DNA from: Auanema rhodensis
Taxonomy: Eukaryota; Animalia; Nematoda
DNA: 64,000 nt
Assembly (NCBI GenBank): GCA_964057225.1
Contig: OZ059897.1
Location: 18,290,001-18,354,000 of the forward strand
Direction of reading: 5' to 3'
Position 1 is the first letter of the stretch; each line of letters starts with the position of its first letter. Of this stretch, positions 42,001 through 64,000 are shown piece after piece. Made by a program: the position numbers and the translations under genes. The notes under the pieces were generated by a model. The model was not told the DNA's origin. It saw only the letters and a list, made by a program, of their open reading frames with translations, and did not search any database.

Positions 42001-45000
42001 TTCCATGTACACTCAACATTGCTTCCAAAAACATTTTGACAAAAATTTTTTCGAAAAATTTCGAAATAATTTAGCAAAAAGTAGATGTTTTTAGATTCCA
42101 TTTTTCAAGGCAAAGACGATAGACAATGTTATTCAACGAAAAAATTAATTCTTCAGGGTGAAAATCGAGGATATAAGTGTGAACTTATATCAGTTGATAT
42201 CTCGGTGCATTTTTAAGCTAGCGCAAATCTGATAACACAGATCGACGCAGCTTAAAAATCCGCATCGAATGCACTATACTACATTGAGAAACGCTTAATA
42301 CAAAAATTAGTTATAATCGTTTGAAAAATGATGCATTAGTGTATGTTGAGTTTCCATGTACACTCAACATTGCTTCCAAAAACATTTTGACAAAAATTTT
42401 TTCGAAAAATTTCAAAATAATTTAGCAAAAAGTAGATGTTTTTAGATTCCATTTTTCAAGGCAAAGACGATGGACAATGTTATTCAACGAAAAAATTAAT
42501 TCTTCAGGGTGAAAATCGAAGATATAAGTGTGAACTTATATCAGTTGATATCTCGGTGCATTTTTAAGCTAGCGCAAATCTGATAACACAGATCGACGCA
42601 GCTTAAAAATCCGCATCGAATGCACTATACTACATTGAGAAACGCTTAATACAAAAATTAGTTATAATCGTTTGAAAAATGATGCATTAGTGTATGTTGA
42701 GTTTCCATGTACACTCAACATTGCTTCCAAAAACATTTTGACAAAAATTTTTTCGAAAAATTTCAAAATAATTTAGCAAAAAGTAGATGTTTTTAGATTC
42801 CATTTTTCAAGGCAAAGACGATGGACAATGTTATTCAACGAAAAAATTAATTCTTCAGGGTGAAAATTGAGGATATAAGTGTGAACTTATATCAGTTGAT
42901 ATCTCGGTGCATTTTTAAGCTAGCGCAAATCTGATAACACAGATCGACGCAGCTTAAAAATCCGCATCGAATGCACTATACTACATTGAGAAACACTTGA
43001 TACAAAAATTAGTTATGATCGTTTGAAAAATGATGCATTAGTGTATGTTGAGTTTCCATGTACACTCAACATTGCTTCCAAAAACATTTTGACAAAAATT
43101 TTTTCGAAAAATTTCAAAATAATTTAGCAAAAAGTAGATGTTTTTAGATTTCATTTTTCAAGGCAAAGACGATGGACAATGTTATTCAACGAAAAAATTA
43201 ATTCTTCAGGGTGAAAATCGAGGATATAAGTGTGAACTTATATCAGTTGATATCTCGGTGCATTTTTAAGCTAGCGCAAATCTGATAACACAGATCGACG
43301 CAGCTTAAAAATCCGCACCGAATGCACTATACTACATTGAGAAACGCTTAATACAAAAATTAGTTATGATCGTTTGAAAAATGATGCATTAGTGTATGTT
43401 GAGTTTCCATGTACACTCAATATTGCTTCCAAAAACATTTTGACAAAAATGTTTTCGAAAAATTTCAAAATAATTTAGCAAAAAGTAGATGTTTTTAGAT
43501 TTCTTTTTTCAAGGCAAAGACGATGGACAATGTTATTCAACGAAAAAATCATTTCTTCAGGGTGAAAATCGAGGATATAAGTGTGAACTTATATCAGTTG
43601 ATATCTGGGTGCATTTTTAAGCTAGCGCAAATCTGATAACACAGATCGACGCAGCTTAAAAATCCGCATCGAATGCACTATACTACATTGAGAAACGCTT
43701 AATACATAAATTAGTTATGATCGTTTGAAAAATGATGCATTAGTGTATGTTGAGTTTCCATGTACACTCAACATTGCTTCCAAAAACATTTTGACAAAAA
43801 TTTTTTCGAAAAATTTCGAAATAATTTAGCAAAAAGTAGATGTTTTTAGATTCCATTTTTCAAGGCAAAGACGATAGACAATGTTATTCAACGAAAAAAT
43901 TAATTCTTCAGGGTGAAAATCGAGGATATAAGTGTGAACTTATATCAGTTGATATCTCGGTGCATTTTTAAGCTAGCGCAAATCTGATAACACAGATCGA
44001 CGCAGCTTAAAAATCCGCATCGAATGCACTATACTACATTGAGAAACGCTTAATACAAGAATTAGTTATAATCGTTTGAAAAATGATGCATTAGTGTATG
44101 TTGAGTTTCCATGTACACTCAACATTGCTTCCAAAAACATTTTGACAAAAATTTTTTCGAAAAATTTCAAAATAATTTAGCAAAAAGTAGATGTTTTTAG
44201 ATTCCATTTTTCAAGGCAAAGACGATAGACAATGTTATTCAACGAAAAAATTAATTCTTTAGGGTGAAAATCGAGGATATAAGTGTGAACTTATATCAGT
44301 TGATATCTCGGTGCATTTTTAAGCTAGCGCAAATCTGATAACACAGATCGACGCAGCTTAAAAATCCGCATCGAATGCTTTATACTACATTGAGAAACGC
44401 TTAATACAAAAATTAGTTATGATCGTTTGAAAAATGATGCATTAGTGTATGTTGAGTTTCCATGTACACTCAACATTGCTTCCAAAAACATTTTGACAAA
44501 AATTTTTTCGAAAAATTTCAAAATAATTTAGCAAAAAGTAGATGTTTTTAGATTCCATTTTTCAAGGCAAAGACGATGGACAATGTTATTCAACGAAAAA
44601 ATTAATTCTTCAGGGTGAAAATCGAGGATATAAGTGTGAACTTATATCAGTTGATATCTCGGTGCATTTTTAAGCTAGCGCAAATCTGATAACACAGATC
44701 GACGCAGCTTAAAAATCCGCATCGAATGCACTATACTACATTGAGAAACGCTTAATACAACAATTAGTTATAATCGTTTGAAAAATGATGCATTAGTGTA
44801 TGTTGAGTTTCCATGTACACTCAACATTGCTTCCAAAAACATTTTGACAAAAATTTTTGCGAAAAATTTCAAAATAATTTAGCAAAAAGTAGATGTTTTT
44901 AGATTCCATTTTTCAAGGCAAAGACGATGGACAATGTTATTCAACGAAAAAATTAATTCTTCAGGGTGAAAATCGAGGATATAAGTGTGAACTTATATCA

Positions 45001-48000
45001 GTTGATATCTCGGTGCATTTTTAAGCTAGCGCAAATCTGATAACACAGATCGACGCAGCTTAAAAATCCGCATCGAATGCACTATACTACATTGAGAAAC
45101 GCTTAATACAAAAATTAGTTATGATCGTTTGAAAAATGATGCATTAGTGTATGTTGAGTTTCCATGTACACTCAATATTGCTTCCAAAAACATTTTGACA
45201 AAAATGTTTTCGAAAAATTTCAAAATAATTTAGCAAAAAGTAGATGTTTTTAGATTTCTTTTTTCAAGGCAAAGACGATGGACAATGTTATTCAACGAAA
45301 AAATCATTTCTTCAGGGTGAAAATCGAGGATATAAGTGTGAACTTATATCAGTTGATATCTGGGTGCATTTTTAAGCTAGCGCAAATCTGATAACACAGA
45401 TCGACGCAGCTTAAAAATCCGCATCGAATGCACTATACTACATTGAGAAACGCTTAATACATAAATTAGTTATGATCGTTTGAAAAATGATGCATTAGTG
45501 TATGTTGAGTTTCCATGTACACTCAACATTGCTTCCAAAAACATTTTGACAAAAATTTTTTCGAAAAATTTCAAAATAATTTAGCAAAAAGTAGATGTTT
45601 TTAGATTCCATTTTTCAAGGCAAAGACGATAGACAATGTTATTCAACGAAAAAATTAATTCTTCAGGGTGAAAATCGAGGATATAAGTGTGAACTTATAT
45701 CAGTTGATATCTCGGTGCATTTTTAAGCTAGCGCAAATCTGATAACACAGATCGACGCAGCTTAAAAATCCGCATCGAATGCACTATACTACATTGAGAA
45801 ACGCTTAATACAAAAATTAGTTATAATCGTTTGAAAAATGATGCATTAGTGTATGTTGAGTTTCCATGTACACTTAACATTGCTTCCAAAAACATTTTGA
45901 CAAAAATTTTTTCGAAAAATTTCAAAATAGTTTACCAAAAAGTAGATGTTTTTAGATTCCATTTTTCAAGGCAAAGACGATAGACAATGTTATTCAACGA
46001 AAAAATTAATTCTTCAGGGTGAAAATCGAGGATATAAGTGTGAACTTATATCAGTTGATATCTCGGTGCATTTTTAAGCTAGCGCAAATCTGATAACACA
46101 GATCGACGCAGCTTAAAAATCCGCATCGAATGCACTATACTACATTGAGAAACGCTTAATACAAAAATTAGTTATAATCGTTTGAAAAATGATGCATTAG
46201 TGTATGTTGAGTTTCCATGTACACTCAACATTGCTTCCAAAAACATTTTGACAAAAATTTTTTCGAAAAATTTCAAAATAATTTAGCAAAAAGTAGATGT
46301 TTTTAGATTCCATTTTTCAAGGCAAAGACGATGGACAATGTTATTCAACGAAAAAATTAATTCTTCAGGGTGAAAATCGAAGATATAAGTGTGAACTTAT
46401 ATCAGTTGATATCTCGGTGCATTTTTAAGCTAGCGCAAATCTGATAACACAGATCGACGCAGCTTAAAAATCCGCATCGAATGCACTATACTACATTGAG
46501 AAACGCTTAATACAAAAATTAGTTATAATCGTTTGAAAAATGATGCATTAGTGTATGTTGAGTTTCCATGTACACTCAACATTGCTTCCAAAAACATTTT
46601 GACAAAAATTTTTTCGAAAAATTTCAAAATAATTTAGCAAAAAGTAGATGTTTTTAGATTCCATTTTTCAAGGCAAAGACGATGGACAATGTTATTCAAC
46701 GAAAAAATTAATTCTTCAGGGTGAAAATTGAGGATATAAGTGTGAACTTATATCAGTTGATATCTCGGTGCATTTTTAAGCTAGCGCAAATCTGATAACA
46801 CAGATCGACGCAGCTTAAAAATCCGCATCGAATGCACTATACTACATTGAGAAACACTTAATACAAAAATTAGTTATAATCGTTTGAAAAATGATGCATT
46901 AGTGTATGTTGAGTTTCCATGTACACTCAACATTGCTTCCAAAAACATTTTGACAAAAATTTTTTCGAAAAATTTCAAAATAATTTAGCAAAAAGTAGAT
47001 GTTTTTAGATTCCATTTTTCAAGGCAAAGACGATGGACAATGTTATTCAACGAAAAAATTAATTCTTCAGGGTGAAAATTGAGGATATAAGTGTGAACTT
47101 ATATCAGTTGATATCTCGGTGCATTTTTAAGCTAGCGCAAATCTGATAACACAGATCGACGCAGCTTAAAAATCCGCATCGAATGCACTATACTACATTG
47201 AGAAACACTTGATACAAAAATTAGTTATGATCGTTTGAAAAATGATGCATTAGTGTATGTTGAGTTTCCATGTACACTCAACATTGCTTCCAAAAACATT
47301 TTGACAAAAATTTTTTCGAAAAATTTCAAAATAATTTAGCAAAAAGTAGATGTTTTTAGATTTCATTTTTCAAGGCAAAGACGATGGACAATGTTATTCA
47401 ACGAAAAAATTAATTCTTCAGGGTGAAAATCGAGGATATAAGTGTGAACTTATATCAGTTGATATCTCGGTGCATTTTTAAGCTAGCGCAAATCTGATAA
47501 CACAGATCGACGCAGCTAAAAAATCCGCACCGAATGCACTATACTACATTGAGAAACGCTTAATACAAAAATTAGTTATGATCGTTTGAAAAATGATGCA
47601 TTAGTGTATGTTGAGTTTCCATGTACACTCAATATTGCTTCCAAAAACATTTTGACAAAAATGTTTTCGAAAAATTTCAAAATAATTTAGCAAAAAGTAG
47701 ATGTTTTTAGATTTCTTTTTTCAAGGCAAAGACGATGGACAATGTTATTCAACGAAAAAATCATTTCTTCAGGGTGAAAATCGAGGATATAAGTGTGAAC
47801 TTATATCAGTTGATATCTGGGTGCATTTTTAAGCTAGCGCAAATCTGATAACACAGATCGACGCAGCTTAAAAATCCGCATCGAATGCACTATACTACAT
47901 TGAGAAACGCTTAATACATAAATTAGTTATGATCGTTTGAAAAATGATGCATTAGTGTATGTTGAGTTTCCATGTACACTCAACATTGCTTCCAAAAACA

Positions 48001-51000
48001 TTTTGACAAAAATTTTTTCGAAAAATTTCGAAATAATTTAGCAAAAAGTAGATGTTTTTAGATTCCATTTTTCAAGGCAAAGACGATAGACAATGTTATT
48101 CAACGAAAAAATTAATTCTTCAGGGTGAAAATCGAGGATATAAGTGTGAACTTATATCAGTTGATATCTCGGTGCATTTTTAAGCTAGCGCAAATCTGAT
48201 AACACAGATCGACGCAGCTTAAAAATCCGCATCGAATGCTTTATACTACATTGAGAAACGCTTAATACAAAAATTAGTTATGATCGTTTGAAAAATGATG
48301 CATTAGTGTATGTTGAGTTTCCATGTACACTCAACATTGCTTCCAAAAACATTTTGACAAAAATTTTTTCGAAAAATTTCAAAATAATTTAGCAAAAAGT
48401 AGATGTTTTTAGATTCCATTTTTCAAGGCAAAGACGATGGACAATGTTATTCAACGAAAAAATTAATTCTTCAGGGTGAAAATCGAGGATATAAGTGTGA
48501 ACTTATATCAGTTGATATCTCGGTGCATTTTTAAGCTAGCGCAAATCTGATAACACAGATCGACGCAGCTTAAAAATCCGCATCGAATGCACTATACTAC
48601 ATTGAGAAACGCTTAATACAACAATTAGTTATAATCGTTTGAAAAATGATGCATTAGTGTATGTTGAGTTTCCATGTACACTCAACATTGCTTCCAAAAA
48701 CATTTTGACAAAAATTTTTGCGAAAAATTTCAAAATAATTTAGCAAAAAGTAGATGTTTTTAGATTCCATTTTTCAAGGCAAAGACGATGGACAATGTTA
48801 TTCAACGAAAAAATTAATTCTTCAGGGTGAAAATCGAGGATATATGTGTGAACTTATATCAGTTGATATCTCGGTGCATTTTTAAGCTAGCGCAAATCTG
48901 ATAACACAGATCGACGCAGCTTAAAAATCCGCATCGAATGCACTATACTACATTGAGAAACGCTTAATACAAAAATTAGTTATAATCGTTTGAAAAATGA
49001 TGCATTAGTGTATGTTGAGTTTCCATGTACACTCAACATTGCTTCCAAAAACATTTTGACAAAAATGTTTTCGAAAAATTTCAAAATAATTTAGCAAAAA
49101 GTAGATGTTTTTAGATTCCATTTTTCAAGGCAAAGACGATAGACAATGTTATTCAACGAAAAAATTAATTCTTTAGGGTGAAAATCGAGGATATAAGTGT
49201 GAACTTATATCAGTTGATATCTCGGTGCATTTTTAAGCTAGCGCAAATCTGATAACACAGATCGACGCAGCTTAAAAATCCGCATCGAATGCTTTATACT
49301 ACATTGAGAAACGCTTAATACAAAAATTAGTTATGATCGTTTGAAAAATGATGCATTAGTGTATGTTGAGTTTCCATGTACACTCAACATTGCTTCCAAA
49401 AACATTTTGACAAAAATTTTTTCGAAAAATTTCAAAATAATTTAGCAAAAAGTAGATGTTTTTAGATTCCATTTTTCAAGGCAAAGACGATAGACAATGT
49501 TATTCAACGAAAAAATTAATTCTTCAGGGTGAAAATCGAGGATATAAGTGTGAACTTATATCAGTTGATATCTCGGTGCATTTTTAAGCTAGCGCAAATC
49601 TGATAACACAGATCGACGCAGCTTAAAAATCCGCATCGAATGCACTATACTACATTGAGAAACGCTTAATACAAAAATTAGTTATAATCGTTTGAAAAAT
49701 GATGCATTAGTGTATGTTGAGTTTCCATGTACACTCAACATTGCTTCCAAAAACATTTTGACAAAAATTTTTGCGAAAAATTTCAAAATAATTTAGCAAA
49801 AAGTAGATGTTTTTAGATTCCATTTTTCAAGGCAAAGACGATGGACAATGTTATTCAACGAAAAAATTAATTCTTCAGGGTGAAAATCGAGGATATATGT
49901 GTGAACTTATATCAGTTGATATCTCGGTGCATTTTTAAGCTAGCGCAAATCTGATAACACAGATCGACGCAGCTTAAAAATCCGCATCGAATGCACTATA
50001 CTACATTGATAAACGCTTAATACAAAAATTAGTTATGATCGTTTGAAAAATGATGCATTAGTGTATGTTGAGTTTCCATGTACACTCAATATTGCTTCCA
50101 AAAACATTTTGACAAAAATGTTTTCGAAAAATTTCAAAATAATTTAGCAAAAAGTAGATGTTTTTAGATTTCTTTTTTCAAGGCAAAGACGATGGACAAT
50201 GTTATTCAACGAAAAAATCATTTCTTCAGGGTGAAAATCGAGGATATAAGTGTGAACTTATATCAGTTGATATCTGGGTGCATTTTTAAGCTAGCGCAAA
50301 TCTGATAACACAGATCGACGCAGCTTAAAAATCCGCATCGAATGCACTATACTACATTGAGAAACGCTTAATACATAAATTAGTTATGATCGTTTGAAAA
50401 ATGATGCATTAGTGTATGTTGAGTTTCCATGTACACTCAACATTGCTTCCAAAAACATTTTGACAAAAATTTTTTCGAAAAATTTCGAAATAATTTAGCA
50501 AAAAGTAGATGTTTTTAGATTCCATTTTTCAAGGCAAAGACGATAGACAATGTTATTCAACGAAAAAATTAATTCTTCAGGGTGAAAATCGAGGATATAA
50601 GTGTGAACTTATATCAGTTGATATCTCGGTGCATTTTTAAGCTAGCGCAAATCTGATAACACAGATCGACGCAGCTTAAAAATCCGCATCGAATGCACTA
50701 TACTACATTGAGAAACGCTTAATACAAAAATTAGTTATAATCGTTTGAAAAATGATGCATTAGTGTATGTTGAGTTTCCATGTACACTCAACATTGCTTC
50801 CAAAAACATTTTGACAAAAATTTTTTCGAAAAATTTCAAAATAATTTAGCAAAAAGTAGATGTTTTTAGATTCCATTTTTCAAGGCAAAGACGATAGACA
50901 ATGTTATTCAACGAAAAAATTAATTCTTCAGGGTGAAAATCGAGGATATAAGTGTGAACTTATATCAGTTGATATCTCGGTGCATTTTTAAGCTAGCGCA

Positions 51001-54000
51001 AATCTGATAACACAGATCGACGCAGCTTAAAAATCCGCATCGAATGCTTTATACTACATTGAGAAACGCTTAATACAAAAATTAGTTATGATCGTTTGAA
51101 AAATGATGCATTAGTGTATGTTGAGTTTCCATGTACACTCAACATTGCTTCCAAAAACATTTTGACAAAAATTTTTTCGAAAAATTTCAAAATAATTTAG
51201 CAAAAAGTAGATGTTTTTAGATTCCATTTTTCAAGGCAAAGACGATGGACAATGTTATTCAACGAAAAAATTAATTCTTCAGGGTGAAAATCGAGGATAT
51301 AAGTGTGAACTTATATCAGTTGATATCTCGGTGCATTTTTAAGCTAGCGCAAATCTGATAACACAGATCGACGCAGCTTAAAAATCCGCATCGAATGCAC
51401 TATATTACATTGAGAAACGCTTAATACAAAAATTAGTTATGATCGTTTGAAAAATGATGCATTAGTGTATGTTGAGTTTCCATGTACACTCAACATTGCT
51501 TCCAAAAACATTTTGACAAAAATTTTTGCGAAAAATTTCAAAATAATTTAGCAAAAAGTAGATGTTTTTAGATTCCATTTTTCAAGGCAAAGACGATGGA
51601 CAATGTTATTCAACGAAAAAATTAATTCTTCAGGGTGAAAATCGAGGATATAAGTGTGAACTTATATCAGTTGATATCTCGGTGCATTTTTAAGCTAGCG
51701 CAAATCTGATAACACAGATCGACGCAGCTTAAAAATCCGCATCGAATGCACTATACTACATCGAGAAACGCTCAATACAAAAATTAGTTATAATCGTTTG
51801 AAAAATGATGCATTAGTGTATGTTGAGTTTCCATGTACACTCAACATTGCTTCCAAAAACATTTTGACAAAAATTTTTTCGAAAAATTTCAAAATAATTT
51901 AGCAAAAAGTAGATGTTTTTAGATTTCATTTTTCAAGGCAAAGACGATGGACAATGTTATTCAACGAAAAAATTAATTCTTCAGGGTGAAAATCGAGGAT
52001 ATAAGTGTGAACTTATATCAGTTGATATCTCGGTGCATTTTTAAGCTAGCGCAAATCTGATAACACAGATCGACGCAGCTTAAAAATCCGCATCGAATGC
52101 ACTATACTACATTGAGAAACGCTTAATACAAAAATTAGTTATGATCGTTTGAAAAATGATGCATTAGTGTATGTTGAGTTTCCATGTACACTCAATATTG
52201 CTTCCAAAAACATTTTGACAAAAATGTTTTCGAAAAATTTCAAAATAATTTAGCAAAAAGTAGATGTTTTTAGATTTCTTTTTTCAAGGCAAAGACGATG
52301 GACAATGTTATTCAACGAAAAAATCATTTCTTCAGGGTGAAAATCGAGGATATAAGTGTGAACTTATATCAGTTGATATCTGGGTGCATTTTTAAGCTAG
52401 CGCAAATCTGATAACACAGATCGACGCAGCTTAAAAATCCGCATCGAATGCACTATACTACATTGAGAAACGCTTAATACATAAATTAGTTATGATCGTT
52501 TGAAAAATGATGCATTAGTGTATGTTGAGTTTCCATGTACACTCAACATTGCTTCCAAAAACATTTTGACAAAAATTTTTTCGAAAAATTTCGAAATAAT
52601 TTAGCAAAAAGTAGATGTTTTTAGATTCCATTTTTCAAGGCAAAGACGATAGACAATGTTATTCAACGAAAAAATTAATTCTTCAGGGTGAAAATCGAGG
52701 ATATAAGTGTGAACTTATATCAGTTGATATCTCGGTGCATTTTTAAGCTAGCGCAAATCTGATAACACAGATCGACGCAGCTTAAAAATCCGCATCGAAT
52801 GCACTATACTACATTGAGAAACGCTTAATACAAAAATTAGTTATAATCGTTTGAAAAATGATGCATTAGTGTATGTTGAGTTTCCATGTACACTCAACAT
52901 TGCTTCCAAAAACATTTTGACAAAAATTTTTTCGAAAAATTTCAAAATAATTTAGCAAAAAGTAGATGTGTTTAGATTCCATTTTTCAAGGCAAAGACGA
53001 TAGACAATGTTATTCAACGAAAAAATTAATTCTTTAGGGTGAAAATCGAGGATATAAGTGTGAACTTATATCAGTTGATATCTCGGTGCATTTTTAAGCT
53101 AGCGCAAATCTGATAACACAGATCGACGCAGCTTAAAAATCCGCATCGAATGCTTTATACTACATTGAGAAACGCTTAATACAAAAATTAGTTATGATCG
53201 TTTGAAAAATGATGCATTAGTGTATGTTGAGTTTCCATGTACACTCAACATTGCTTCCAAAAACATTTTGACAAAAATTTTTTCGAAAAATTTCAAAATA
53301 ATTTAGCAAAAAGTAGATGTTTTTAGATTCCATTTTTCAAGGCAAAGACGATGGACAATGTTATTCAACGAAAAAATTAATTCTTCAGGGTGAAAATCGA
53401 GGATATAAGTGTGAACTTATATCAGTTGATATCTCGGTGCATTTTTAAGCTAGCGCAAATCTGATAACACAGATCGACGCAGCTTAAAAATCCGCATCGA
53501 ATGCACTATACTACATTGAGAAACGCTTAATACAAAAATTAGTTATGATCGTTTGAAAAATGATGCATTAGTGTATGTTGAGTTTCCATGTACACTCAAC
53601 ATTGCTTCCAAAAACATTTTGACAAAAATTTTTGCGAAAAATTTCAAAATAATTTAGCAAAAAGTAGATGTTTTTAGATTCCATTTTTCAAGGCAAAGAC
53701 GATGGACAATGTTATTCAACGAAAAAATTAATTCTTCAGGGTGAAAATCGAGGATATAAGTGTGAACTTATATCAGTTGATATCTCGGTGCATTTTTAAG
53801 CTAGCGCAAATCTGATAACACAGATCGACGCAGCTTAAAAATCCGCATCGAATGCACTATACTACATCGAGAAACGCTCAATACAAAAATTAGTTATAAT
53901 CGTTTGAAAAATGATGCATTAGTGTATGTTGAGTTTCCATGTACACTCAACATTGCTTCCAAAAACATTTTGACAAAAATTTTTTCGAAAAATTTCAAAA

Positions 54001-54056
54001 TAATTTAGCAAAAAGTAGATGTTTTTAGATTTCATTTTTCAAGGCAAAGACGATGG
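1..54056. repeat. Tandem satellite DNA array, 351-bp monomer, 154 copies (+2 bp), continuing off the left edge
   Basis: (G/A)GACAATGTTATTCAACG recurs at 1, 352, ... 7021, 14041, 21061, 28081, 35101, 42121, 49141 (every 20 monomers = 7020 bp). Monomer 155 starts at 54055 (1+154x351) and is cut after GG. Copies differ only by a few recurrent substitutions. Confidence 0.99.
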
Positions 54057-54080
54057 CGTTCCATTCGGAGACTCTATATA

Positions 54081-54741
54081 TGTAACTGCAGGGTTAGAGC
54101 CAGACCGACTAGAGGAATGAGGAATGGCACCGCCTTCCCTCATGCCCCTATTCGGGAGTTCGCCCCTTTGCAAGCCCATGGACGGTTTGCATCTAACTTA
54201 GTTAATCTTATATATTAGTCTTTGTCTTGTAAATGTAGTTTACTTTATCCTTGTGTTAATGTATTGTAATGATATTGTATTGTGTATAATAAACCTATAT
54301 ATTTCCTTATCTTATGTAATCCTTATGCTCTGTTTCCATACCGCTACACTTATGGAATACTATACGCGTAGTTGAGCAGACTACAATGGTCTGTTCAATA
54401 TACGTAGGAGCATAATGGAACGTGGAGGTTCCACCTCGAACTCATTTTTGTCGCAAAAACTCGCATAAAAAGTCCATATTTTGATATCTAAATTAAAACT
54501 TCCTCCACGGTTAGCAACATAATGAGGGCGCCAACTTGTATAAGGTGCAGGTACAAGGGATCTCTCTTTTAGAGAGCTAGGACTACATAATTTTGAAATT
54601 TCACCCGCTGTCCCCACTCATAAAACCGTCTGAGTGTCCACCCTTATAATACCGTATCCTGCACCGCTTCTCTTGCATTTTTTTTTGAGGACGTTTGGAT
54701 CGAAATAGGGGACAATTTCACCAAACGAAATTTTGATTACA
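54081..54741 (+). repeat. 5' LTR (661 bp by TGTAA...TTACA termini; shared sequence actually starts at 54057)
   Basis: Starts TGTAAC and ends ATTACA (5-bp terminal inverted repeat). AATAAA at 54288-54293. No difference seen by eye from 63094-63754. Exact termini uncertain (see findings). Confidence 0.75.
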
Positions 54742-55389: not shown

Positions 55390-55405
55390 ATATATGAAAC
55401 AATTG

Positions 55406-55774
55406 TTAAAAGCCCCATTTAAAATGCAACTGTCTCACAAATTCTATAGGCTGTGAGATGGGCTCATCGCTAGGCTCTAAATACTGCGAATACACCGAAT
55501 CCGCAGAGGTCCTTAGCAATAAGCCCATAGGAGACTGTTCATAAAATAAATAAATTTTAAACAAAATTTTAGACATATAATCATAAAAATCATGAGACTT
55601 ATGCTCATACCAATTCCAAGGGGATGCGACCAGATTTGGGTTTTCATACCAATGCGCGCACAAGTCGGTGAGGCACCATCGCCGGATAGCTGCAACCTCA
55701 TCCGCTATTTCCTGCATTAGGGAGAAGTTTACTAATCCCCTTCCCAGATAATGCATCTTTAAATCCTCAATAAA
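55406..55774 (-). CDS. Antisense accessory gene, exon 2 (FIEDLKMHYLGRG...HFKWGF*); unknown function
   Basis: The 116-aa ORF in the track extends 6 codons upstream to an AATTTTTAG acceptor (AG at 55776-55775) in phase 0. Protein-like composition. Confidence 0.7.
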   Translation of the reverse strand, partial: FIEDLKMHYLGRGLVNFSLMQEIADEVAAIRRWCLTDLCAHWYENPNLVASPWNWYEHKSHDFYDYMSKILFKIYLFYEQSPMGLLLRTSADSVYSQYLEPSDEPISQPIEFVRQLHFKWGF

Positions 55775-55819
55775 CTAAAAATTCTTATTAAGATAACATG
55801 TTTCTTTGTTTTAACCAAC

Positions 55820-55939
55820 CATCTTAATTATGTCTGGGTGCGGCCTATAAGCTAACACTTCGTCTTGATCATACAAGACGAGGTCAGCGTACAGCTTCCT
55901 CAAGACAAAAGTCATTCCCGATAGACCTTCATAAGCCAT
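55820..55939 (-). CDS. Antisense accessory gene, exon 1 (MAYEGLSGMTFVLRKLYADLVLYDQDEVLAYRPHPDIIKM)
   Basis: ATG in an A-rich context (AAATCAAAGA ATG G), 40 open codons ending ATG|GTTGGT. The 45-nt intron 55819-55775 joins it in frame to exon 2, giving 162 aa. Confidence 0.65.
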
Positions 55940-56352
55940 TCTTTGATTTATTTTTTTTTTTCAGCTCTACAAATATAAAGATTCTTATGCATAAAAAGGG
56001 GACATAAAACGACTGAAAATCTCTCTCATACTTTCAAGAATTCAATTAGAGTAAAGTATTAAGATTGAGGCTAGAAAGAGCGAAGACCAAAAAAAATTTA
56101 TAATTGATGAACATCTGTGAAATAGAATAAAGAAAAGAGAATACGGTAGATAGGCGGAGCCAGATCTCAGGCCAAGATTTTAAAACTCTTTCTCATCTAA
56201 TAACGATTCTCGGCGAAAGACGCCACGTCTCAATCTTCAAACGTTTCTTACTTTTCCTATAACCGACCCGAATTTCTTGTCACTCATTCAACGTCAACAT
56301 CCCCCATATAACGAAACACTCGCGGTTTTTCCGAACCAAGAGTGATTCCAAA

Positions 56353-59300
56353 GTGGCACGAAGATACTCTTCGGCCGTCCCTGCTCTATACCCTTCTGAG
56401 TCCAGTGACGACATCGCAGTCGCCAGTCGAACCAGAAGCCGCACTCGACTCCTCAGTGTTCAGATTGAAGAGCCTGAACAAGAGGTAAAACCCAAAGTCG
56501 AGAAAACCTTCATTCCTCGAGAAGGCACGTATTCACCTCCGGACAACACCGAGGAGGACCCTGATTTCTATATTCAGGACTACAATATTCAAACTTCAGC
56601 TTCAACTCCAAAGATAATACCGCTTATAAAGGCCAGACGAGCTGTCAACCCTTCATATTCAATTATTGACTGGGTTTCAGCACATCCCGAGAAGTTTTAT
56701 TTCTTCTTAAGAAGTCCCGTATCTGATAAATCCATACAACGTTTCCTTCAAACATACGAAATACACGACCCTGAGGAAGCAATACTTTATTTTCTTGCGC
56801 AAAAGGAACTGGCAGCAACCACTCGCGGCGCTATACGGTATTTAACCTCACAACAATTATTAGAACAGATAGGTGACAGATTAACAGCACACGAATTTGA
56901 CGAAAAACTGCTAGAAAAAGACGGATCCTACCGTGAAAGAGCCGAAAGCATAGCGATGGAGTTAGCTTATACACCGGTAATATTTGAAAACAATCTGTCG
57001 GTACCATCAAGGCAAGAGGTTTTAAAATCCTTTGTGAACATGCCGCCGATCCGACCAACTCTAACAACTGACAATGCTGATGAGCGTATAGTACTTAGAA
57101 ACACTCTTTACTTATACCATAACTTGATGACATTGCGAGTAATAAGGCCAAATAAAACAGCAGCAGCCGTAGATGATGAAAAGTTCCGACAATTAACAAT
57201 CAATGTGCCAGATACCAACAAATTATATCGAGATAAAGATTCTAACTACGGTATATCGATAGGGCCCCACCCTCGCATTCAAAACCCAAGCGCAGATACA
57301 CGCCAGCTACTTATAAAAACATTTTTACCACTGTTAGAGGATATTGAAACACCGCCTTATCTGACTAGAAGACTGTCATTAACGACAACAACGGACAAAC
57401 CCGCTTCACTAGTTCAGGAGACAACTAAAAGCCATACGACTCGGATTCCGACGACAACCACAGTTGAGACGACAACAGCCGCGATAACTACGACTCTCTC
57501 GCCAACAACATTAGCAACAGTCACTGACACGGCGTCACGAATCTTAAGGAAACAAAGAACATCATCTCCACCCGTAGAAACCAGAGAAATTCAGGCTCAG
57601 GCAACGTATACAGCGTCAAAAGTGAACAACGAAATACAATTCAACCTCAACGTATCTCGCAGAATAGCTCAAGATCATCTACAATATACAACAACACTCA
57701 TACAAGAAGAGCTACAGAAACATTTCATGGAATCTTATGAATCCATATGTGAGATTCAAAATAGATACCTCGAGCTATGGCGTTCTATTTTACACATAGA
57801 ACCTACAATAGCAATGAGGACTATTTTAGGAAGAGAGGATATTGCAGCCCGTTTCGTAGGCAGCGATATAGTTCATGTTCATATATGCCTACCTCTTCAA
57901 CCTAAAGCTGTTTATCATAATCATAAGATCAATGATACATGCTATTTGGAAACACCAGTAATAACAGAAGATGAGAGATTATATTTTGCTGCTCCAGGAT
58001 CAAGAGACTTATTAACACATGGAAAAGAGATAGATTGCGAACATGTACCCACAGATGTATACTATCAAAATGGAGAATGGATAAATATAAATGGATCGGT
58101 TGAAGTAAAACCAATATCACTCTTTGATAAAGCGCAATACCACCAATTAACACCTTTAAAGTTCACAGGCGCTAACTTATACACCAATTTATCATTGAGA
58201 GTTTACTCAATGTCAACAGCTATTGCATATGGAGCAAGTTTAGCATCCATACGACAGAACCATGTTTTACATACTATTCACAACGATCCAAAAATTACGT
58301 CCGCCTTTAATCTTTTGAAAAAGGGCAGTGACTATATCTCTAAAGCAGCTGAGTTCACAACTTCCGCCTGGACTAGCGTAAAGCAATTTCTAATAGGATC
58401 AATTGAGAGAACACTCATCTTCATAGGATCAATGGTTACGATTGCCGCAGTATTAATAATTCTTTTCGTTGTTGCTAAATTTTGGTTCTTCAGAGCCACT
58501 CCACTAACCGTAATGCATGTCCACGAAATAGATAATGAGCCCCCAAGCTATGAAGAAACATTGGAACTTGTAAGCCGCCCAGACCAACAGATGCCAGATA
58601 ACATCATGAAGCAATACTATCCTGCTTTAGTAACATTTATTCCAATCGCAATACCATTTGTTGCTTCTATTGTATCAGCGGAAACAAAGTTACCATTAAT
58701 ATATATATCAGTTGAAGATAAACTGATTTTAGCTTTATGGGATTCAGGCTCATCAGTGTCATATGTTAGGCTCTCCACCCTCAAATATCTGAACATGGCC
58801 GAAAATGTCAAGAAGAGACATTTAGTAGCGATGGCAGCCAACAAGTCCACTTTCACATTTTATGGAAAGATAAATCTTGTAATTGAAATTGCCGGTTACG
58901 AGATCGAACACACCTTTTTGGTCTCAAACGATCATGACTGTCCTGCTCCCGCTTTAATTGGACTAGATTTCATGAAAGCGCTTGACAGCGAAAACATCGA
59001 CGTCAGCCTTAAACCATCCAAGAAGAGGTTGGAGATTGGAAACAATGCCATCCCATTAATAGGAAACGAATCTATTAAGCATACGGAGATAACTGTGAAT
59101 ATCATTAATTTAAGAACAAAAACATTAAAGCCTGATGAAGAGGCACCTATCCCAATAAAGACAGATAAACCACTAGAATCTAACGAAGTGGTTGTCTTAG
59201 GGGATAGTGGAAGCGCATTAAAATCATTATATCCAACTGCGTTTCGTGATACCAGTGGAGTATATGTTATGTTCCGTAACAATACCGATGAAACAATAGC

Positions 59301-62300
59301 TATGGAAGCTAATTCAGTCATCGGACAGGCAATAATTGGAGAAATTCCGGCTTGTGAACCCTTTAAGCATAAGCCAATTCTACCATATGTTCCGCCAGAG
59401 GCCGATTGGGAGAGTAAACTACCATATTTTCCAAGAGACTTCATAAAAGATCTTGATCTAGAGAATGCTGATCTCACGAAAGAAGAAAAACATGAGCTTA
59501 CAAAAATAATTGAAAGCCATCGTGAGGCATTTCTTAACGAGGACAGGAAAATAGGCTTATTTAAAGGTCCTATAGAGCATACCATACCATTGAGAACAGA
59601 TATGGATATGCCAAAGCCGAGAATAACACGTATTCCCTTAGGAAAACAGGAAGAAATTGAAAAACAAGTCAAAGAAATGCTTGAGCAAGGCATAATAGAG
59701 CCTTCTACATCTCTATTTAATAGCCCTGTAGTACTAGTTAAGAAGAAAGATGACACGTATAGGTTTGTGACAGATTTTCGAGCTTTAAATAATGTCACAC
59801 GCAAGCAAACTTATGTCATTCCAAGCATTTCTGACATAGTTGATTTGGCAGCAGGCGCCCAATTTTTCTCAAACTTCGATTTAGTGTCAGGATTTTTTCA
59901 AATATCCTTGAGAAAATCAGATCGACCACTAACAGCATTTACGACCACATCCGGCACATACCAGTACAAACGGATGCCGATGGGCCTTTGTGGAGCCCCT
60001 CATACCTTTCAAACAGCAGTAAGGTATTTGCAAAGTAAATGTTCTTGTAAACTATTTGTTTATTTGGACGATCTATTAGTTATATCTGATACAAGAGAAC
60101 AACATCTCAAAGATATCGATGATTTACTGCAAGCAGTAGAAGAATTGGGAATGAAGATAAAGCTTAAGAAATGCGCTTTTGCTCAACCAGAAGTGAAATT
60201 TCTAGGACTTATTGTAGGACGTCAAGGTATAAAACCTGACCCTCAAAAAGTCGCCGCCATACAAGATTATCCGGCACCAAAGAATGCAACAGGTGTACGA
60301 GCATTCTTGGGAATGGTTGGATTCTTTCGCAAATTCATGAAAGATTTTGCACGTATCGCAAGCCCTTTATACGATCTGACAAAGGCAGATACTGAATTCA
60401 AATGGGAAAACAAACATCAAGAAGCTTTAGACCTCCTTAAAAGAAGTTTAATACAGGCACCCGTTTTAAGCCCACCTAAATCGGACCGCTTGTTTATAGT
60501 TGAAAGCGACGGTAGTAACATCGCCATAGGTGCTGTATTATTACAACCGGAAGATCCAAAACAACCTCTGAAAAATCTACACCCTATCGCATTTGCAAGC
60601 AGAAAACTAGTTAAAGCCGAACGTAACTACGCACCAATCGAGATAGAAGCATTAGGCCTTGTATATGCATTAAATCAATTCCGTACATACATTCTTGGAA
60701 CTCATACTATATGTATTACGGACCATCGACCTCTTACCAGCTTAATGACACGCAGAGACTTATTTGGTCGTCTTGCGAAGTTCCAGCTGGTCATCCAAGA
60801 ATATGATATTGAAATAAAATATCGCGCAGGCCAATTAAATAAAGTATGCGATGCTCTATCTCGATATATAGGTGAAGAAGCTAACGATGCTAAGCCGGAA
60901 ACAAAGAAGAAGAAAATGGAAGAAATTCACATTAACGCCATAAATACACCAACAATAAAGGAAATTCAACTAAGCACCCCTTGGATTAAACGGACGATAG
61001 CGGAGATTGAATATAGAGCACAAAAGAACATGACAGCTAATGACAGATATTGTGTCATAAATGACTTGCTCTATACAAAACCAACAGACAAAAAGCCACA
61101 ACCCGCTATCGTAATACCACAAGAACACCCCATAATTGAGGAAATAATCAAAGTTTTTCATGAGGATCCTACAATTGCAGCACATCAAGGAATTATTAAA
61201 ACAAAAGAAGCAATTCTAAGAAGATTCTATTGGACAAATATGCAGAACGACATTACTATATTCATCAAGAACTGCATTAAATGTGCTCAAAGAAAAAAAG
61301 ATCCACATTCCATGACGGTACAACCAATAGGTCATTTTGAGATACCAAGCAAGCCATTTGAACGAGTCCACATGGACGTAATGGGACCATTTCCCCCTTC
61401 AAAAAGAAACTGTACCTACGTCATTACCATGCAAGACGCATTTACAAAATGGTCAACAACAATTGCTGTACCACAAATAACAACGGAAATCACAATTGAT
61501 CGATTTCTAAGACATTTCGTTTACATTTTTGGACCACCCCATCGCTTGATCACCGATAGAGGTTCAAACTTTGTATCTAAAAAGTTCGAAGAAATGTGTA
61601 CTAAACTTGGAATCAAACATGAACCAACACTACCACACCAAAAGAACTCAAATGGACAAGTGGAAAGACTTCACCGAACCCTCGAAGAAGGATTAACCCA
61701 CTACTTAAAAGAGGACCTTAGTGACTGGGATACTGTATTACCAAAAATCACTTTTGCTATTAACAATATTCAGCACGCGACTACAGGGATTGCGCCATAC
61801 ATTGCATTATTCGGTAAAGAATGCAGAATGTCAATGGACGCTGAATTACCAGAAACGATCACCAAAATTCAAGAAATTTCTGAAGAATTACTCCAAAGAA
61901 GACCAGATATGGACAAGAGAGACGAAATAATAAAGAACCGCATAGCTAAAAATCAAGAAAATGCGAAAAAGAAGAAAGATAGAACGCAAAGAGCACACCA
62001 TAGAGACATTCAACCGGGCGACATGGTGATGACGACTATAAAATCACACCAAATCGGCCAAAAGCTTCGGAAAAGCTATGATGGACCATGCGAAGTCATC
62101 AACGTAGAAGGATCAAAAGTTCAAATCAGAAATTCATCAGGAAAACTACAAGATATCCACAAAGATAACTTGAAAATCTTCTCTCCTGCTTCACAAAACA
62201 TCTCTTACAACACTCGCGCAAGGTTTCGAGAAAGTCAAGCAGAAGAAGATAGCGACATCGAAATAATAGAAGTGATCAACAGGAACAACAAGGATAGCAT

Positions 62301-62364
62301 AGATACAGAGCCAGAAGATGAAAATGAAGACGAAATATGGCTTCCGAGGAATGAAGAAGAATAA
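56353..62364 (+). CDS. pol: Retroelement polyprotein: unknown N-terminal domain + gB-like envelope half + protease + RT + RNase H + integrase
   Basis: Uninterrupted frame (open from 56263). The track start is GTG and the first in-frame ATG is at 56956, so the true start is uncertain. Catalytic motifs are intact. Confidence 0.93.
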   Translation: MARRYSSAVPALYPSESSDDIAVASRTRSRTRLLSVQIEEPEQEVKPKVEKTFIPREGTYSPPDNTEEDPDFYIQDYNIQTSASTPKIIPLIKARRAVNPSYSIIDWVSAHPEKFYFFLRSPVSDKSIQRFLQTYEIHDPEEAILYFLAQKELAATTRGAIRYLTSQQLLEQIGDRLTAHEFDEKLLEKDGSYRERAESIAMELAYTPVIFENNLSVPSRQEVLKSFVNMPPIRPTLTTDNADERIVLRNTLYLYHNLMTLRVIRPNKTAAAVDDEKFRQLTINVPDTNKLYRDKDSNYGISIGPHPRIQNPSADTRQLLIKTFLPLLEDIETPPYLTRRLSLTTTTDKPASLVQETTKSHTTRIPTTTTVETTTAAITTTLSPTTLATVTDTASRILRKQRTSSPPVETREIQAQATYTASKVNNEIQFNLNVSRRIAQDHLQYTTTLIQEELQKHFMESYESICEIQNRYLELWRSILHIEPTIAMRTILGREDIAARFVGSDIVHVHICLPLQPKAVYHNHKINDTCYLETPVITEDERLYFAAPGSRDLLTHGKEIDCEHVPTDVYYQNGEWININGSVEVKPISLFDKAQYHQLTPLKFTGANLYTNLSLRVYSMSTAIAYGASLASIRQNHVLHTIHNDPKITSAFNLLKKGSDYISKAAEFTTSAWTSVKQFLIGSIERTLIFIGSMVTIAAVLIILFVVAKFWFFRATPLTVMHVHEIDNEPPSYEETLELVSRPDQQMPDNIMKQYYPALVTFIPIAIPFVASIVSAETKLPLIYISVEDKLILALWDSGSSVSYVRLSTLKYLNMAENVKKRHLVAMAANKSTFTFYGKINLVIEIAGYEIEHTFLVSNDHDCPAPALIGLDFMKALDSENIDVSLKPSKKRLEIGNNAIPLIGNESIKHTEITVNIINLRTKTLKPDEEAPIPIKTDKPLESNEVVVLGDSGSALKSLYPTAFRDTSGVYVMFRNNTDETIAMEANSVIGQAIIGEIPACEPFKHKPILPYVPPEADWESKLPYFPRDFIKDLDLENADLTKEEKHELTKIIESHREAFLNEDRKIGLFKGPIEHTIPLRTDMDMPKPRITRIPLGKQEEIEKQVKEMLEQGIIEPSTSLFNSPVVLVKKKDDTYRFVTDFRALNNVTRKQTYVIPSISDIVDLAAGAQFFSNFDLVSGFFQISLRKSDRPLTAFTTTSGTYQYKRMPMGLCGAPHTFQTAVRYLQSKCSCKLFVYLDDLLVISDTREQHLKDIDDLLQAVEELGMKIKLKKCAFAQPEVKFLGLIVGRQGIKPDPQKVAAIQDYPAPKNATGVRAFLGMVGFFRKFMKDFARIASPLYDLTKADTEFKWENKHQEALDLLKRSLIQAPVLSPPKSDRLFIVESDGSNIAIGAVLLQPEDPKQPLKNLHPIAFASRKLVKAERNYAPIEIEALGLVYALNQFRTYILGTHTICITDHRPLTSLMTRRDLFGRLAKFQLVIQEYDIEIKYRAGQLNKVCDALSRYIGEEANDAKPETKKKKMEEIHINAINTPTIKEIQLSTPWIKRTIAEIEYRAQKNMTANDRYCVINDLLYTKPTDKKPQPAIVIPQEHPIIEEIIKVFHEDPTIAAHQGIIKTKEAILRRFYWTNMQNDITIFIKNCIKCAQRKKDPHSMTVQPIGHFEIPSKPFERVHMDVMGPFPPSKRNCTYVITMQDAFTKWSTTIAVPQITTEITIDRFLRHFVYIFGPPHRLITDRGSNFVSKKFEEMCTKLGIKHEPTLPHQKNSNGQVERLHRTLEEGLTHYLKEDLSDWDTVLPKITFAINNIQHATTGIAPYIALFGKECRMSMDAELPETITKIQEISEELLQRRPDMDKRDEIIKNRIAKNQENAKKKKDRTQRAHHRDIQPGDMVMTTIKSHQIGQKLRKSYDGPCEVINVEGSKVQIRNSSGKLQDIHKDNLKIFSPASQNISYNTRARFRESQAEEDSDIEIIEVINRNNKDSIDTEPEDENEDEIWLPRNEEE
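57559..58491 (+). other. env: Envelope-like domain: herpesvirus gB / class III fusogen C-terminal half with TM anchor
   Basis: ICEIQNRYLELWRSILHIEPTIAMRTILGREDIAARFVGSDIVHVHIC...DTCYLETPV parallels HSV gB WCELQNHELTLW...LNP...GRRVSARMLGDVMAVSTC...CYSRPLV. N-glycosylation sequons NVS, NDT, NGS, NLS. Hydrophobic helix at 58411-58491. Confidence 0.8.
58690..59060 (+). other. Retropepsin aspartic protease domain
   Basis: ALWDSGSSVSYV (Asp codon at 58741) and downstream ALIGLDFM. Boundaries approximate. Confidence 0.92.
59620..60220 (+). other. Reverse transcriptase domain
   Basis: SPVVLVKKKDDTYRFVTDFRALN, FDLVSGFFQI, MPMGLCGAP, YLDD at 60061-60072. Boundaries approximate. Confidence 0.97.
60490..60870 (+). 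other. RNase H domain
   Basis: ESDGSNIAIGAVL, IAFASRKL, ERNYAPIEIEAL, TDHRPL, NKVCDALSR. Confidence 0.95.
61050..62180 (+). other. Integrase (HHCC zinc finger, DDE core, GPY/F-like module; no chromodomain, acidic tail)
   Basis: FHEDPTIAAHQG...CIKC; HMDVMGP, TDRGSNF, VERLHRTL; YDGPCEV. Confidence 0.95.
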
Positions 62365-63058
62365 CAACAAGATAATGCTACGTTATTTAAATTATTGTAA
62401 CAAAATAACGATGAATTAAAAAAAAAAAAAAAAAATTAATGCTAAATAACATTCAAAATAAAAATAGCATTTAATAGAGATTGAGAAAGGAAAAATAAGG
62501 CAAATTCTAAACGAGGAGATGTTATGACTAATGGTTCCAAGTTACCGTAATCCTATGCGGACTAGAGGACATTTTGACAACCATCCGAGCTCCATGTGCC
62601 TCTCCAAATAAGATGAGATGAACACTGGTAGGCGTATCAACCACAATTTCATCTTAAGTGGTAGTCTCCATTAGTAATCAAGGATTCACTCTGGGAGACA
62701 TATGGAGACACATTATTAAATCATAATCTCGGTTCAATTTAGAAATGAGTACTTCTTGAGACCATTAGTCAAAATAATAACATATTCCCATTCATTACTA
62801 GCCCCTTTATTCTACAATCTCTATTAGGAAATGCTTGAATATTAAGATAATTAATTTATGAAATTAATAATATTCTAATTCATCGTCCCTTCATATTATA
62901 TTGAACCCTTCTTATAAATTATTGTAATTTTGTTTGTATACTAACTAAAACTCTATCATACTATAGTTATTGTGAAGCTAAAACAATTGAACTCTAAAAC
63001 TCAGTTACATATAAGCCCAAATTTTTGTTTAAAATATCGCGAGGTCGCGACAATCTTT

Positions 63059-63067
63059 GAAAAAGGG
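63059..63067 (+). promoter_or_regulatory. Polypurine tract
   Basis: GAAAAAGGG ends 2 nt before the start of the duplicated sequence (63070) and 26 nt before TGTAAC. Confidence 0.55.
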
Positions 63068-63093
63068 CACGTTCCATTCGGAGACTCTATATA

Positions 63094-63754
63094 TGTAACT
63101 GCAGGGTTAGAGCCAGACCGACTAGAGGAATGAGGAATGGCACCGCCTTCCCTCATGCCCCTATTCGGGAGTTCGCCCCTTTGCAAGCCCATGGACGGTT
63201 TGCATCTAACTTAGTTAATCTTATATATTAGTCTTTGTCTTGTAAATGTAGTTTACTTTATCCTTGTGTTAATGTATTGTAATGATATTGTATTGTGTAT
63301 AATAAACCTATATATTTCCTTATCTTATGTAATCCTTATGCTCTGTTTCCATACCGCTACACTTATGGAATACTATACGCGTAGTTGAGCAGACTACAAT
63401 GGTCTGTTCAATATACGTAGGAGCATAATGGAACGTGGAGGTTCCACCTCGAACTCATTTTTGTCGCAAAAACTCGCATAAAAAGTCCATATTTTGATAT
63501 CTAAATTAAAACTTCCTCCACGGTTAGCAACATAATGAGGGCGCCAACTTGTATAAGGTGCAGGTACAAGGGATCTCTCTTTTAGAGAGCTAGGACTACA
63601 TAATTTTGAAATTTCACCCGCTGTCCCCACTCATAAAACCGTCTGAGTGTCCACCCTTATAATACCGTATCCTGCACCGCTTCTCTTGCATTTTTTTTTG
63701 AGGACGTTTGGATCGAAATAGGGGACAATTTCACCAAACGAAATTTTGATTACA
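63094..63754 (+). repeat. Second LTR (shared between tandem units)
   Basis: Copy of 54081-54741 at offset 9013. The same 78-aa shadow ORF and the same 9-T run occur in both. Confidence 0.8.
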
Positions 63755-64000
63755 TTATTATTTGGCAACGAGGAGTTAGAATGAAATTTTGAAAGCGCAC
63801 AAAGTTTAATATTTTATTGTGGTCAGGACTAGAGATTTGAAAGTTAAATTCAGGCGTAAAAGAGCATGCTAACTAAATATTTTTGCGGGAGCCGTTATTC
63901 GGTTTTTATTTTTTTTTTGATTGTGAGAATAGACCACACTAGTCCGAAAAATCCTGGCACAAATTTTATTGCCTGTCAGGTCATTTTGGCGAAAGCACAT
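63755..64000 (+). mobile_element. Start of a second tandem unit (PBS at 63763-63774 + leader), truncated by the window end
   Basis: 63755-64000 repeats 54742-54987 instead of returning to satellite. Confidence 0.7.

What the first reader, a model, noticed from the sequence alone, without database searches (positions are those of the whole stretch)
57379..62364. gB-like envelope fused in-frame upstream of Pol (env-pol order) in a Ty3/gypsy element
Seen: one frame runs Thr-rich linker, RKQR, Cys-containing ectodomain, TM helix, ~60-aa tail, then PR-RT-RH-IN with no stop or frameshift. Known: env in retroviruses and errantiviruses normally lies 3' of pol as a separate ORF; gB-like env is known in some invertebrate LTR elements (e.g. 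Ascaris Tas, a BEL/Pao element). Inference: Pol would be made as the cytoplasmic extension of a membrane glycoprotein, so it could be tethered to budding membranes by Env rather than by a Gag-Pol fusion, then released by its own protease. I cannot tell from here whether this architecture has already been described.
Basis: partly seen in the sequence, partly recalled or inferred. Interest (0 to 1): 0.9.

Follow-up and report, generated by a model that had tools for sequence, protein, structure and literature searches.

The report
Shortened nematode gag-env-pol retroelement copy
This is a copy of an already described kind of retrovirus-like element, likely from a nematode, whose herpes-gB-like envelope gene is read in one frame ahead of its enzymes; this copy lacks 2.7 kb (no capsid gene, only half of the envelope), likely because it was copied from a spliced RNA.

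Summary
The fusion is real. One 2,033-codon frame (56263-62364) runs gB-like ectodomain half, TM, tail, PR, RT, RH, IN, and the ectodomain model matches herpes gB. The order is not new: GAG-ENV-POL Ty3/gypsy elements are published for nematodes (Chary & Hayashi 2026, citing Sacco 2022), and this scan met the order before on other DNA. Among 151 relatives, 62 have env before PR/RT in one chain, none after; 17 run gag-env-pol. Contigs of two runs hold 2,694 more bases between 56613 and 56614. That stretch begins GT, ends AG and is a whole number of codons, so the copy is likely a reverse-transcribed spliced RNA; a DNA deletion is the main rival. No listed contig shows the junction. Env tethering of Pol is likely for full-length relatives, but Gag is in the same chain. 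Also found: 366-bp identical LTRs with CG...CG ends, a tRNA-Gln primer site, a tandem second copy, and a spliced antisense gene of unknown function. Verdict: new, defective member of a known kind.

The parts
1..54056 (.). 351-bp tandem satellite, 154 copies, flanking the element on the left
   Evidence: (54056/351 = 154.0)
54057..54422 (+). 5' LTR, 366 bp, 9-bp perfect terminal inverted repeat, CG...CG ends, AATAAA at 54288
   Evidence: Contigs from about 54415 onward are at internal-region depth in X3 and X5. An RNA? contig of X12 ends at 54326
54423..54434 (+). primer-binding site, tRNA-Gln type
   Evidence: reverse complement equals the tRNA-Gln 12-mer listed for Clat_errantivirus_4 and Ctro_errantivirus_1 in PMC13524379 supplement 1
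55406..55939 (-). spliced antisense gene: exon 55939-55820 (ATG, 40 codons), 45-nt GT-AG intron 55819-55775, exon 55774-55406 (122 codons and stop); 162 aa; function unknown
   Evidence: an RNA? contig of X12 skips exactly 55775-55819; exons in phase, 8 of 11 listed differences synonymous; no homologue for the larger exon
56263..56613 (+). 117 open codons without ATG ahead of the junction; likely the N-terminal leader of the polyprotein
   Evidence: chance of 117 open codons about 6e-4; no match in 151 fetched proteins
56613..56614 (+). junction at which other copies hold 2,694 more bases (ends GT...AG, between codons); gag, internal signal peptide and gB N-half are absent from this copy
   Evidence: single contigs of X1 and X3 map to both sides 2,694 nt apart, X8 has loose ends on both sides, X13 on the donor side; X12 on the donor side; phase; absence
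56614..57372 (+). all-helical insert of the Env cleavage-loop region (aa 118-370), shared only with Auanema elements
   Evidence: 37% identity to P0001 aa 487-782; 5 of 151 proteins match, all labelled Auanema sp. JU1783; model pLDDT 74.7, pTM 0.69
57379..57558 (+). Thr-rich mucin-like linker (aa 373-427) and RKQR (aa 429-432, minimal R-X-X-R)
   Evidence: 6 of the 8 non-synonymous differences lie in the linker
57580..58410 (+). C-terminal half of a gB-type (class III) ectodomain: long central helix and beta crown domain
   Evidence: (pLDDT about 87-98 over model residues 1-180)
58417..58473 (+). transmembrane helix (aa 719-737)
58474..58674 (+). tail, ending in a Pro-rich hydrophobic stretch (aa 788-806) at the likely protease site
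58708..58977 (+). aspartic protease (DSG, D827)
59122..59370 (+). likely degenerate dUTPase-like domain between PR and RT
   Evidence: PF00692 E 0.0022 on the isolated stretch, below cut-off; weak in 2 of 9 relatives scanned
59737..60804 (+). reverse transcriptase (YLDD) and RNase H
   Evidence: (best PDB match Ty3 Gag-Pol, E 2.9e-106)
61132..62364 (+). integrase (HHCC, DDE core), C-terminal tail and stop
63059..63069 (+). polypurine tract
63070..63435 (+). second LTR, identical to the first
63436..64000 (+). primer site and leader again: start of a tandem second copy sharing the LTR, cut by the window end
   Evidence: 565 of 565 bases identical to 54423-54987

Best explanation
This is an internally shortened copy of a Ty3/gypsy LTR element of the published GAG-ENV-POL kind, likely from a rhabditid nematode: its gB-like env half is in frame with PR-RT-RH-IN, it lacks 2,694 bases that other copies hold, and it likely arose by reverse transcription of a spliced RNA. 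Shown: relatives encode one chain, Gag - internal hydrophobic signal - gB N-half - furin site - insert - gB C-half - TM - tail - PR - RT - RH - IN. Inferred: the internal signal threads Env into the ER, the TM stops transfer and returns Pol to the cytosol, so Gag and Pol both face the cytosol on an Env membrane; signal peptidase, furin and the element's protease would then separate the parts. Inferred for this copy: an in-frame GT-AG splice removed the stretch that in relatives encodes gag, the signal and the gB N-half. The RNA kept both LTR ends, the primer site and the PPT, and would have been packaged and copied by proteins of full-length copies. It would be non-autonomous: no capsid, no fusion-loop domain.
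For: Order and family. Env before PR/RT in 62 of 151 proteins, after in 0; gag<envN<envC<pol in 17 of 151. Published order; primer site identical to two published Caenorhabditis elements and LTR length inside their range. RT groups 100/100 with proteins labelled C. japonica, C. nigoni, C. brenneri, Heterorhabditis and one unnamed; env-PR-RT start is 49% identical to an Auanema protein. Shortening: no gag or envN match in the element; 2,694 extra nt in one contig each of X1 (possible source) and X3 (another study). Splice: ends GT...AG with exonic AG, between codons; about 0.2-0.7% expected by base composition. Precedent: C. elegans Cer1 splices in-frame N-terminal gag-frame exons to a distant acceptor (PMC3315495, PMC10309623). 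Identical LTRs fit a recent reverse-transcription product.
Against: No listed contig in 6 runs laid bridges the window's junction (262 and 21 pieces were not shown, and contigs drop rare forms). The RNA? contigs of X12 and X13 read through the donor unspliced, at low depth. The acceptor departs by one base from the TTTCAG consensus quoted in PMC10309623 and the donor is only a partial match. A 2-nt AG overlap also fits a microhomology deletion. Only the 30 letters at each end of the missing stretch were seen, so its gag/env content is inferred from relatives. Many relatives are gene models, which may bridge frameshifts. Topology and cleavage are untested.
Confidence: 0.62

Rival explanations
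1. Same family and same defective copy, but the 2,694 bases were lost at the DNA level or by a template jump during reverse transcription at a 2-nt AG microhomology; the GT-AG ends are chance.
For: 2-nt overlap at 56612-56613; imperfect splice signals; no spliced contig in X12 or X13. The in-frame length is partly selected, since the copy was noticed for its open frame.
Against: GT...AG ends are expected in about 0.2-0.7% of random deletions; the exon-side AG and a T-rich acceptor fit splicing; Cer1 precedent.
Confidence: 0.25
2. The junction is an assembly error: all real copies are full length and the window dropped 2,694 bases.
For: Contigs of X1, X3 and X8 pass both junction points unbroken, and no listed piece bridges it.
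Against: An assembler has no reason to cut at GT...AG between codons. The 154 satellite units are individually distinct (97-100%), which suggests a long-read assembly (inference). Contigs drop rare variants.
Confidence: 0.07
3. One reading: a natural gag-less env-pol element in which an intact Env replaces Gag as the carrier that brings Pol to budding membranes.
For: The window frame does run env-TM-tail-Pol with no gag.
Against: The majority form in X1, X3 and X8 is longer. 31 of 32 relatives with a gag match also carry envC, with gag first in all 31. This copy has no signal peptide or gB N-half.
Confidence: 0.03

Closest known systems
Nematode GAG-ENV-POL 'errantiviruses' with HSV/gB-type ENV (Chary & Hayashi, eLife 2026, PMC13524379), e.g. 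Clat_errantivirus_4, Ctro_errantivirus_1, Cbre_errantivirus_2
   Same: Env before pol, gB-type env, Ty3/gypsy pol, tRNA-Gln primer site (same 12-mer as 2 of the 30 nematode rows seen), LTR 366 bp (173-424 bp in the 8 Gln rows). P0153 (C. brenneri, 12,007-nt contig, same species and contig length as Cbre_errantivirus_2; link inferred) is one chain gag-env-PR-RT-RH-IN, RT 46% identical.
   Different: This copy lacks gag and the env N-half and would have failed that paper's intactness filter. 'Auanema' does not occur in supplement 1. The main text has no hit for 'splic', 'dUTPase', 'antisense' or 'single ORF'.
NERVs (Sacco et al. 2022, J Gen Virol 103:1739)
   Same: Cited in PMC13524379 as nematode ERVs with ENV and POL flipped. 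Recalled, not read: one continuous gag-env-pro-pol ORF, env like chu/nyami-type viral glycoproteins, extra small ORFs.
   Different: Paper not held, so clade membership and any match of the antisense gene to its small ORF could not be checked.
C. elegans Cer1 (PMC3315495, PMC10309623)
   Same: Nematode Ty3/gypsy with no stop between gag and pol; an in-frame spliced mRNA joins N-terminal gag-frame exons to a distant 3' region.
   Different: Cer1 has no gB env, and its splice removes pol and yields the export protein CERV; here the GT-AG stretch lies before pol.
Herpesvirus gB and chuvirus-like G (class III fusogens)
   Same: Central helix and crown domain fold: every PDB row listed is a herpes gB, best E 2.3e-5; BFVD best E 4.9e-9.
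   Different: Only the C-half is present; TM-scores over the query are low (0.3-0.4, large rmsd, inter-domain angle differs); a long non-gB insert precedes it.

Membership tests
Ty3/gypsy (Metaviridae) | pol order PR-RT-RH-IN with gypsy-type RT | tested here: met
   (RVT_1, RT_RNaseH_2, Integrase_H2C2, rve in that order); best PDB match Ty3 Gag-Pol E 2.9e-106. The tree had no BEL/Pao or copia outgroup
Ty3/gypsy (Metaviridae) | LTRs, primer-binding site, polypurine tract | tested here: met
Ty3/gypsy (Metaviridae) | TG...CA termini (usual feature, recalled) | tested here: not met
   the inverted repeat begins and ends CG; left end fixed by the satellite junction, right end by the primer site
Ty3/gypsy (Metaviridae) | target-site duplication | not testable with these tools
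   the right end of the insertion is outside the window and no genome is held
GAG-ENV-POL HSV/gB-type errantivirus / NERV | gB-type env upstream of pol | tested here: met
GAG-ENV-POL HSV/gB-type errantivirus / NERV | gag upstream of env | tested here: not met
   absent from this copy; present in relatives (17 of 151); sister copies are 2,694 nt longer exactly there, their sequence not read
GAG-ENV-POL HSV/gB-type errantivirus / NERV | complete ectodomain (domains I-V, fusion loops) behind a signal peptide or first TM | tested here: not met
   only the C-half; no hydrophobic segment before aa 700 above 1.35. The copy is therefore filed as a defective derivative of this lineage, not as an intact member
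GAG-ENV-POL HSV/gB-type errantivirus / NERV | RT inside the nematode env-pol lineage | tested here: inconclusive
   100/100 clade with nematode-labelled env-pol proteins, but all 32 rows were env-pol relatives and no published NERV reference sequence was included
BEL/Pao env elements (Tas, Atlas, Anakin) | BEL-type pol with env 3' of integrase | tested here: not met
   gypsy-type Pfam set, env 5' of PR
retrocopy of a spliced transcript | missing stretch bounded by GT...AG | tested here: met
retrocopy of a spliced transcript | the same junction seen in RNA | tested here: inconclusive
   two RNA? runs of one study, low-depth contigs, read through the donor; no junction listed

The most novel reading that the evidence does not exclude
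Single-chain gag-env-pol elements use a programmed in-frame splice that removes gag, the Env signal and the fusion-loop half, giving a Gag-independent Pol mRNA (foamy-virus-like, recalled). Without the signal, the Env TM plus the second hydrophobic stretch (aa 788-806) could form a hairpin that keeps Pol cytosolic on membranes. This copy would be the DNA record of that mRNA, and the spliced antisense gene could be its Rev/CERV-like regulator.
Probability: 0.15. Interest if true: 0.65.

Novelty: new member of a known kind. Interest (0 to 1): 0.3.

Why it matters
The gene order needs no new explanation. What stays open, and was not found in the text read, is how a one-chain Gag-Env-Pol is threaded through a membrane, cut, and balanced in amount. 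A copy with an exact GT-AG, in-frame loss names two sites where splicing can be tested directly in host RNA. The spliced, conserved antisense gene and the CG...CG ends are two further concrete handles. If the loss is a plain deletion, this is an ordinary defective insertion beside a satellite.

Tried and rejected
One-off rearrangement of gag-pol-env: rejected, 0 of the 62 proteins with env and PR/RT have env after (the query itself favours env-PR neighbours). Degenerate or inverted gag/envN in 54057-56700 or 62300-63100: none, best E 0.33. LTR of 931 bp or more: rejected in favour of 366 bp plus a tandem copy. Fold of the helical insert: no match (Foldseek best E 0.85; VIA best Z 4.0 over 58 residues), which shows neither a new nor a different fold. 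Antisense exon: no Pfam hit, no homologue among proteins of 66-212 aa; longer proteins and the 40-codon exon were not searched; the ESM Atlas did not answer. No RNA holder is on record as RNA. No genome held. No tRNA gene in the window. Second hydrophobic stretch as a family-wide TM: it reaches 1.9 or more in the window and 2 of 16 relatives with a scorable protease motif (2 of 18 unscored), so it is more likely a protease site. Literature: Sacco 2022 not held; two searches returned only PMC13524379; searches added nothing on the order; two searches gave no citable case of spliced LTR copies; one search gave nothing on CG termini. Searching supplements by short element names gave 0 hits. Figures and the paper's GitHub sequences could not be seen and may bear on the single-ORF, insert and dUTPase points. 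Earlier notes by place: none.
Full report
Observation. A single stop-free frame covers 56263-62364, 2,033 codons. Pfam places a class III fusion-protein match at aa 473-613 (PF24664, E 3.7e-15) and gB at aa 470-556 (PF00606, E 5.3e-9, below cut-off), then protease, RT, RNase H and integrase. A TM lies at aa 719-737, and the catalytic motifs are intact. An AlphaFold model of aa 440-716 built on 24 sequences is confident over its first 180 residues and poor beyond. Every PDB row listed is a herpes gB, best E 2.3e-5, and BFVD gives chu-like, nyami-like and herpes glycoproteins, best E 4.9e-9; whole-query TM-scores are only 0.3-0.4. The fusion is real. RKQR is only a minimal furin motif, the first ATG is codon 232, and there is no signal peptide.

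The element. The 5' LTR is 54057-54422 and the second 63070-63435, identical, with a 9-bp terminal inverted repeat that begins and ends CG. The 12 bases after the LTR match the tRNA-Gln 12-mer listed for two Caenorhabditis elements in supplement 1 of PMC13524379. A purine tract precedes the second LTR. After it the primer site and leader recur, 565 of 565 bases identical, so this is a tandem insertion. To the left lie 154 copies of a 351-bp satellite. The right end is outside the window and no genome is held.

Relatives. The closest protein is labelled Auanema sp. JU1783, 49% identical over 777 residues from the linker into RT. A search of 1.84 billion representatives gave 344 hits at E up to 0.001, of which 150 were listed. 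Of 151 stored proteins, 121 match the env C-half; 62 have it before PR or RT in one chain and none after. 32 match a gag probe, 31 of these also envC with gag first, and 17 run gag, envN, envC, pol in order; 5 have gag and envC without a detected envN. The query favours env-PR neighbours and many hits are gene models. In an RT tree of 32 rows the window falls in a 100/100 clade with proteins labelled C. japonica, C. nigoni, C. brenneri, Heterorhabditis and one unnamed; rows with under 170 aligned RT residues were left out, including the Auanema protein, and there was no outgroup. A rhabditid nematode host is inferred. Of 27 differences that one search listed inside the frame, 19 are synonymous against 27% expected (p 4e-6), and 6 of the 8 others lie in the Thr-rich linker; 7 rows of that table were not shown and linked changes are not independent.

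What is known. Chary & Hayashi (PMC13524379; I read the abstract, sections 6 and 14 whole, the first parts of sections 5 and 9, passages, and 30 of 36 nematode rows of supplement 1; preprint passages) state that elements of Nematoda, Bryozoa and Platyhelminthes carry gB-type ENV arranged GAG-ENV-POL, and cite Sacco et al. 2022 for the flipped order. Sacco is not held; that it describes one continuous gag-env-pro-pol ORF is my recall. P0153, from a 12,007-nt C. brenneri contig like their Cbre_errantivirus_2, is one chain with gag, gB, PR, RT, RH and IN. Two earlier notes of this scan report the same order on other DNA.

In P0001 and P0002 the env begins with an internal hydrophobic signal after gag, then a Cys-rich N-half and a canonical furin site. 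None of this matches the window element; similarity to P0001 starts at about aa 114-118. Fifteen public runs from 4 studies hold the stretch or part of it; I laid 6 of them. One contig each of X1 (10,394 nt, possibly the source) and X3 (3,564 nt, another study) maps to both sides of 56613/56614 with 2,694 bases between. X8 has loose ends on both sides, X12 and X13 on the 5' side; X5 was not shown there. The missing stretch begins GT, ends AG, follows an exonic AG, falls between codons and equals 898 codons; GT...AG ends are expected in about 0.2-0.7% of random deletions. Read by eye, its last 30 letters resemble the Auanema env just upstream of the aligned block. Against splicing: no listed piece bridges the junction (262 and 21 pieces not shown), the two RNA? 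runs read through the donor, and both signals are imperfect. Cer1 of C. elegans, a single gag-pol chain, makes an in-frame spliced mRNA from gag-frame exons (PMC3315495, PMC10309623, passages), so the host machinery and the habit have precedent.

How it likely works. For full-length copies (inferred): Gag is made in the cytosol, the internal signal opens Env into the ER, the TM returns the chain, and Pol hangs on the cytosolic side until the protease frees it. Similar short hydrophobic motifs at the tail/PR, PR/dUTPase-like and RH/IN borders may be its sites. For this copy (inferred): a spliced RNA that kept the LTR ends, primer site and PPT was copied with the help of full-length elements. 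It could not build a capsid or a fusogen alone. Odds: spliced retrocopy 0.62, DNA deletion 0.25, assembly error 0.07, natural gag-less design 0.03.

Extras. An RNA? contig of X12 skips 55775-55819, a GT-AG intron on the minus strand. This defines a two-exon, 162-codon antisense gene in phase, with 8 of 11 listed differences synonymous, 10 of the 11 from one contig, and no homologue found. A weak dUTPase match lies between PR and RT. The 250-aa helical insert is shared only with five Auanema proteins and has no fold match.

Verdict. Observation confirmed; interpretation partly supported; architecture already described. This is a new, defective member of a known lineage, interest 0.3. The boldest reading left is a programmed splice giving a Gag-independent Pol mRNA (probability 0.15, interest 0.65).

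Noticed in passing
window 55406-55939 (-): Spliced antisense gene (45-nt intron seen in an RNA? contig), 162 codons, mostly synonymous differences, no homologue found.
   Followed up: partly
window 54057-54065, 54414-54422: LTR ends are CG...CG in a 9-bp inverted repeat, not TG...CA; the repeat extends by 2 nt into the PPT side and the primer site.
   Followed up: partly
window 63070-64000: Head-to-tail tandem copy sharing the LTR, beside a 351-bp satellite.
   Followed up: partly
window 1-54056: 154 copies of a 351-bp, 31% GC satellite at 97-100% identity; the element starts at a unit boundary of the register counted from base 1.
   Followed up: no
window 59122-59370: Weak dUTPase-like match between PR and RT, also weak in P0124 and P0040.
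   Followed up: partly
window 56614-57372: Helical insert in Env; the gap between env N- and C-halves ranges from 19 to 507 aa among 57 relatives, so this loop tolerates large lineage-specific inserts.
   Followed up: partly
window 54402-54449, 54683-55040: Other contigs share the LTR end and primer site or parts of the leader, then diverge: related families or non-autonomous derivatives in the same genomes.
   Followed up: no
P0151 (2,681 aa), P0141 (3,316 aa): P0151 has a gB-type env at its C-terminal end behind 2,000 aa with no gag or pol match; P0141 has about 850 aa and three hydrophobic segments ahead of env.
   Followed up: no
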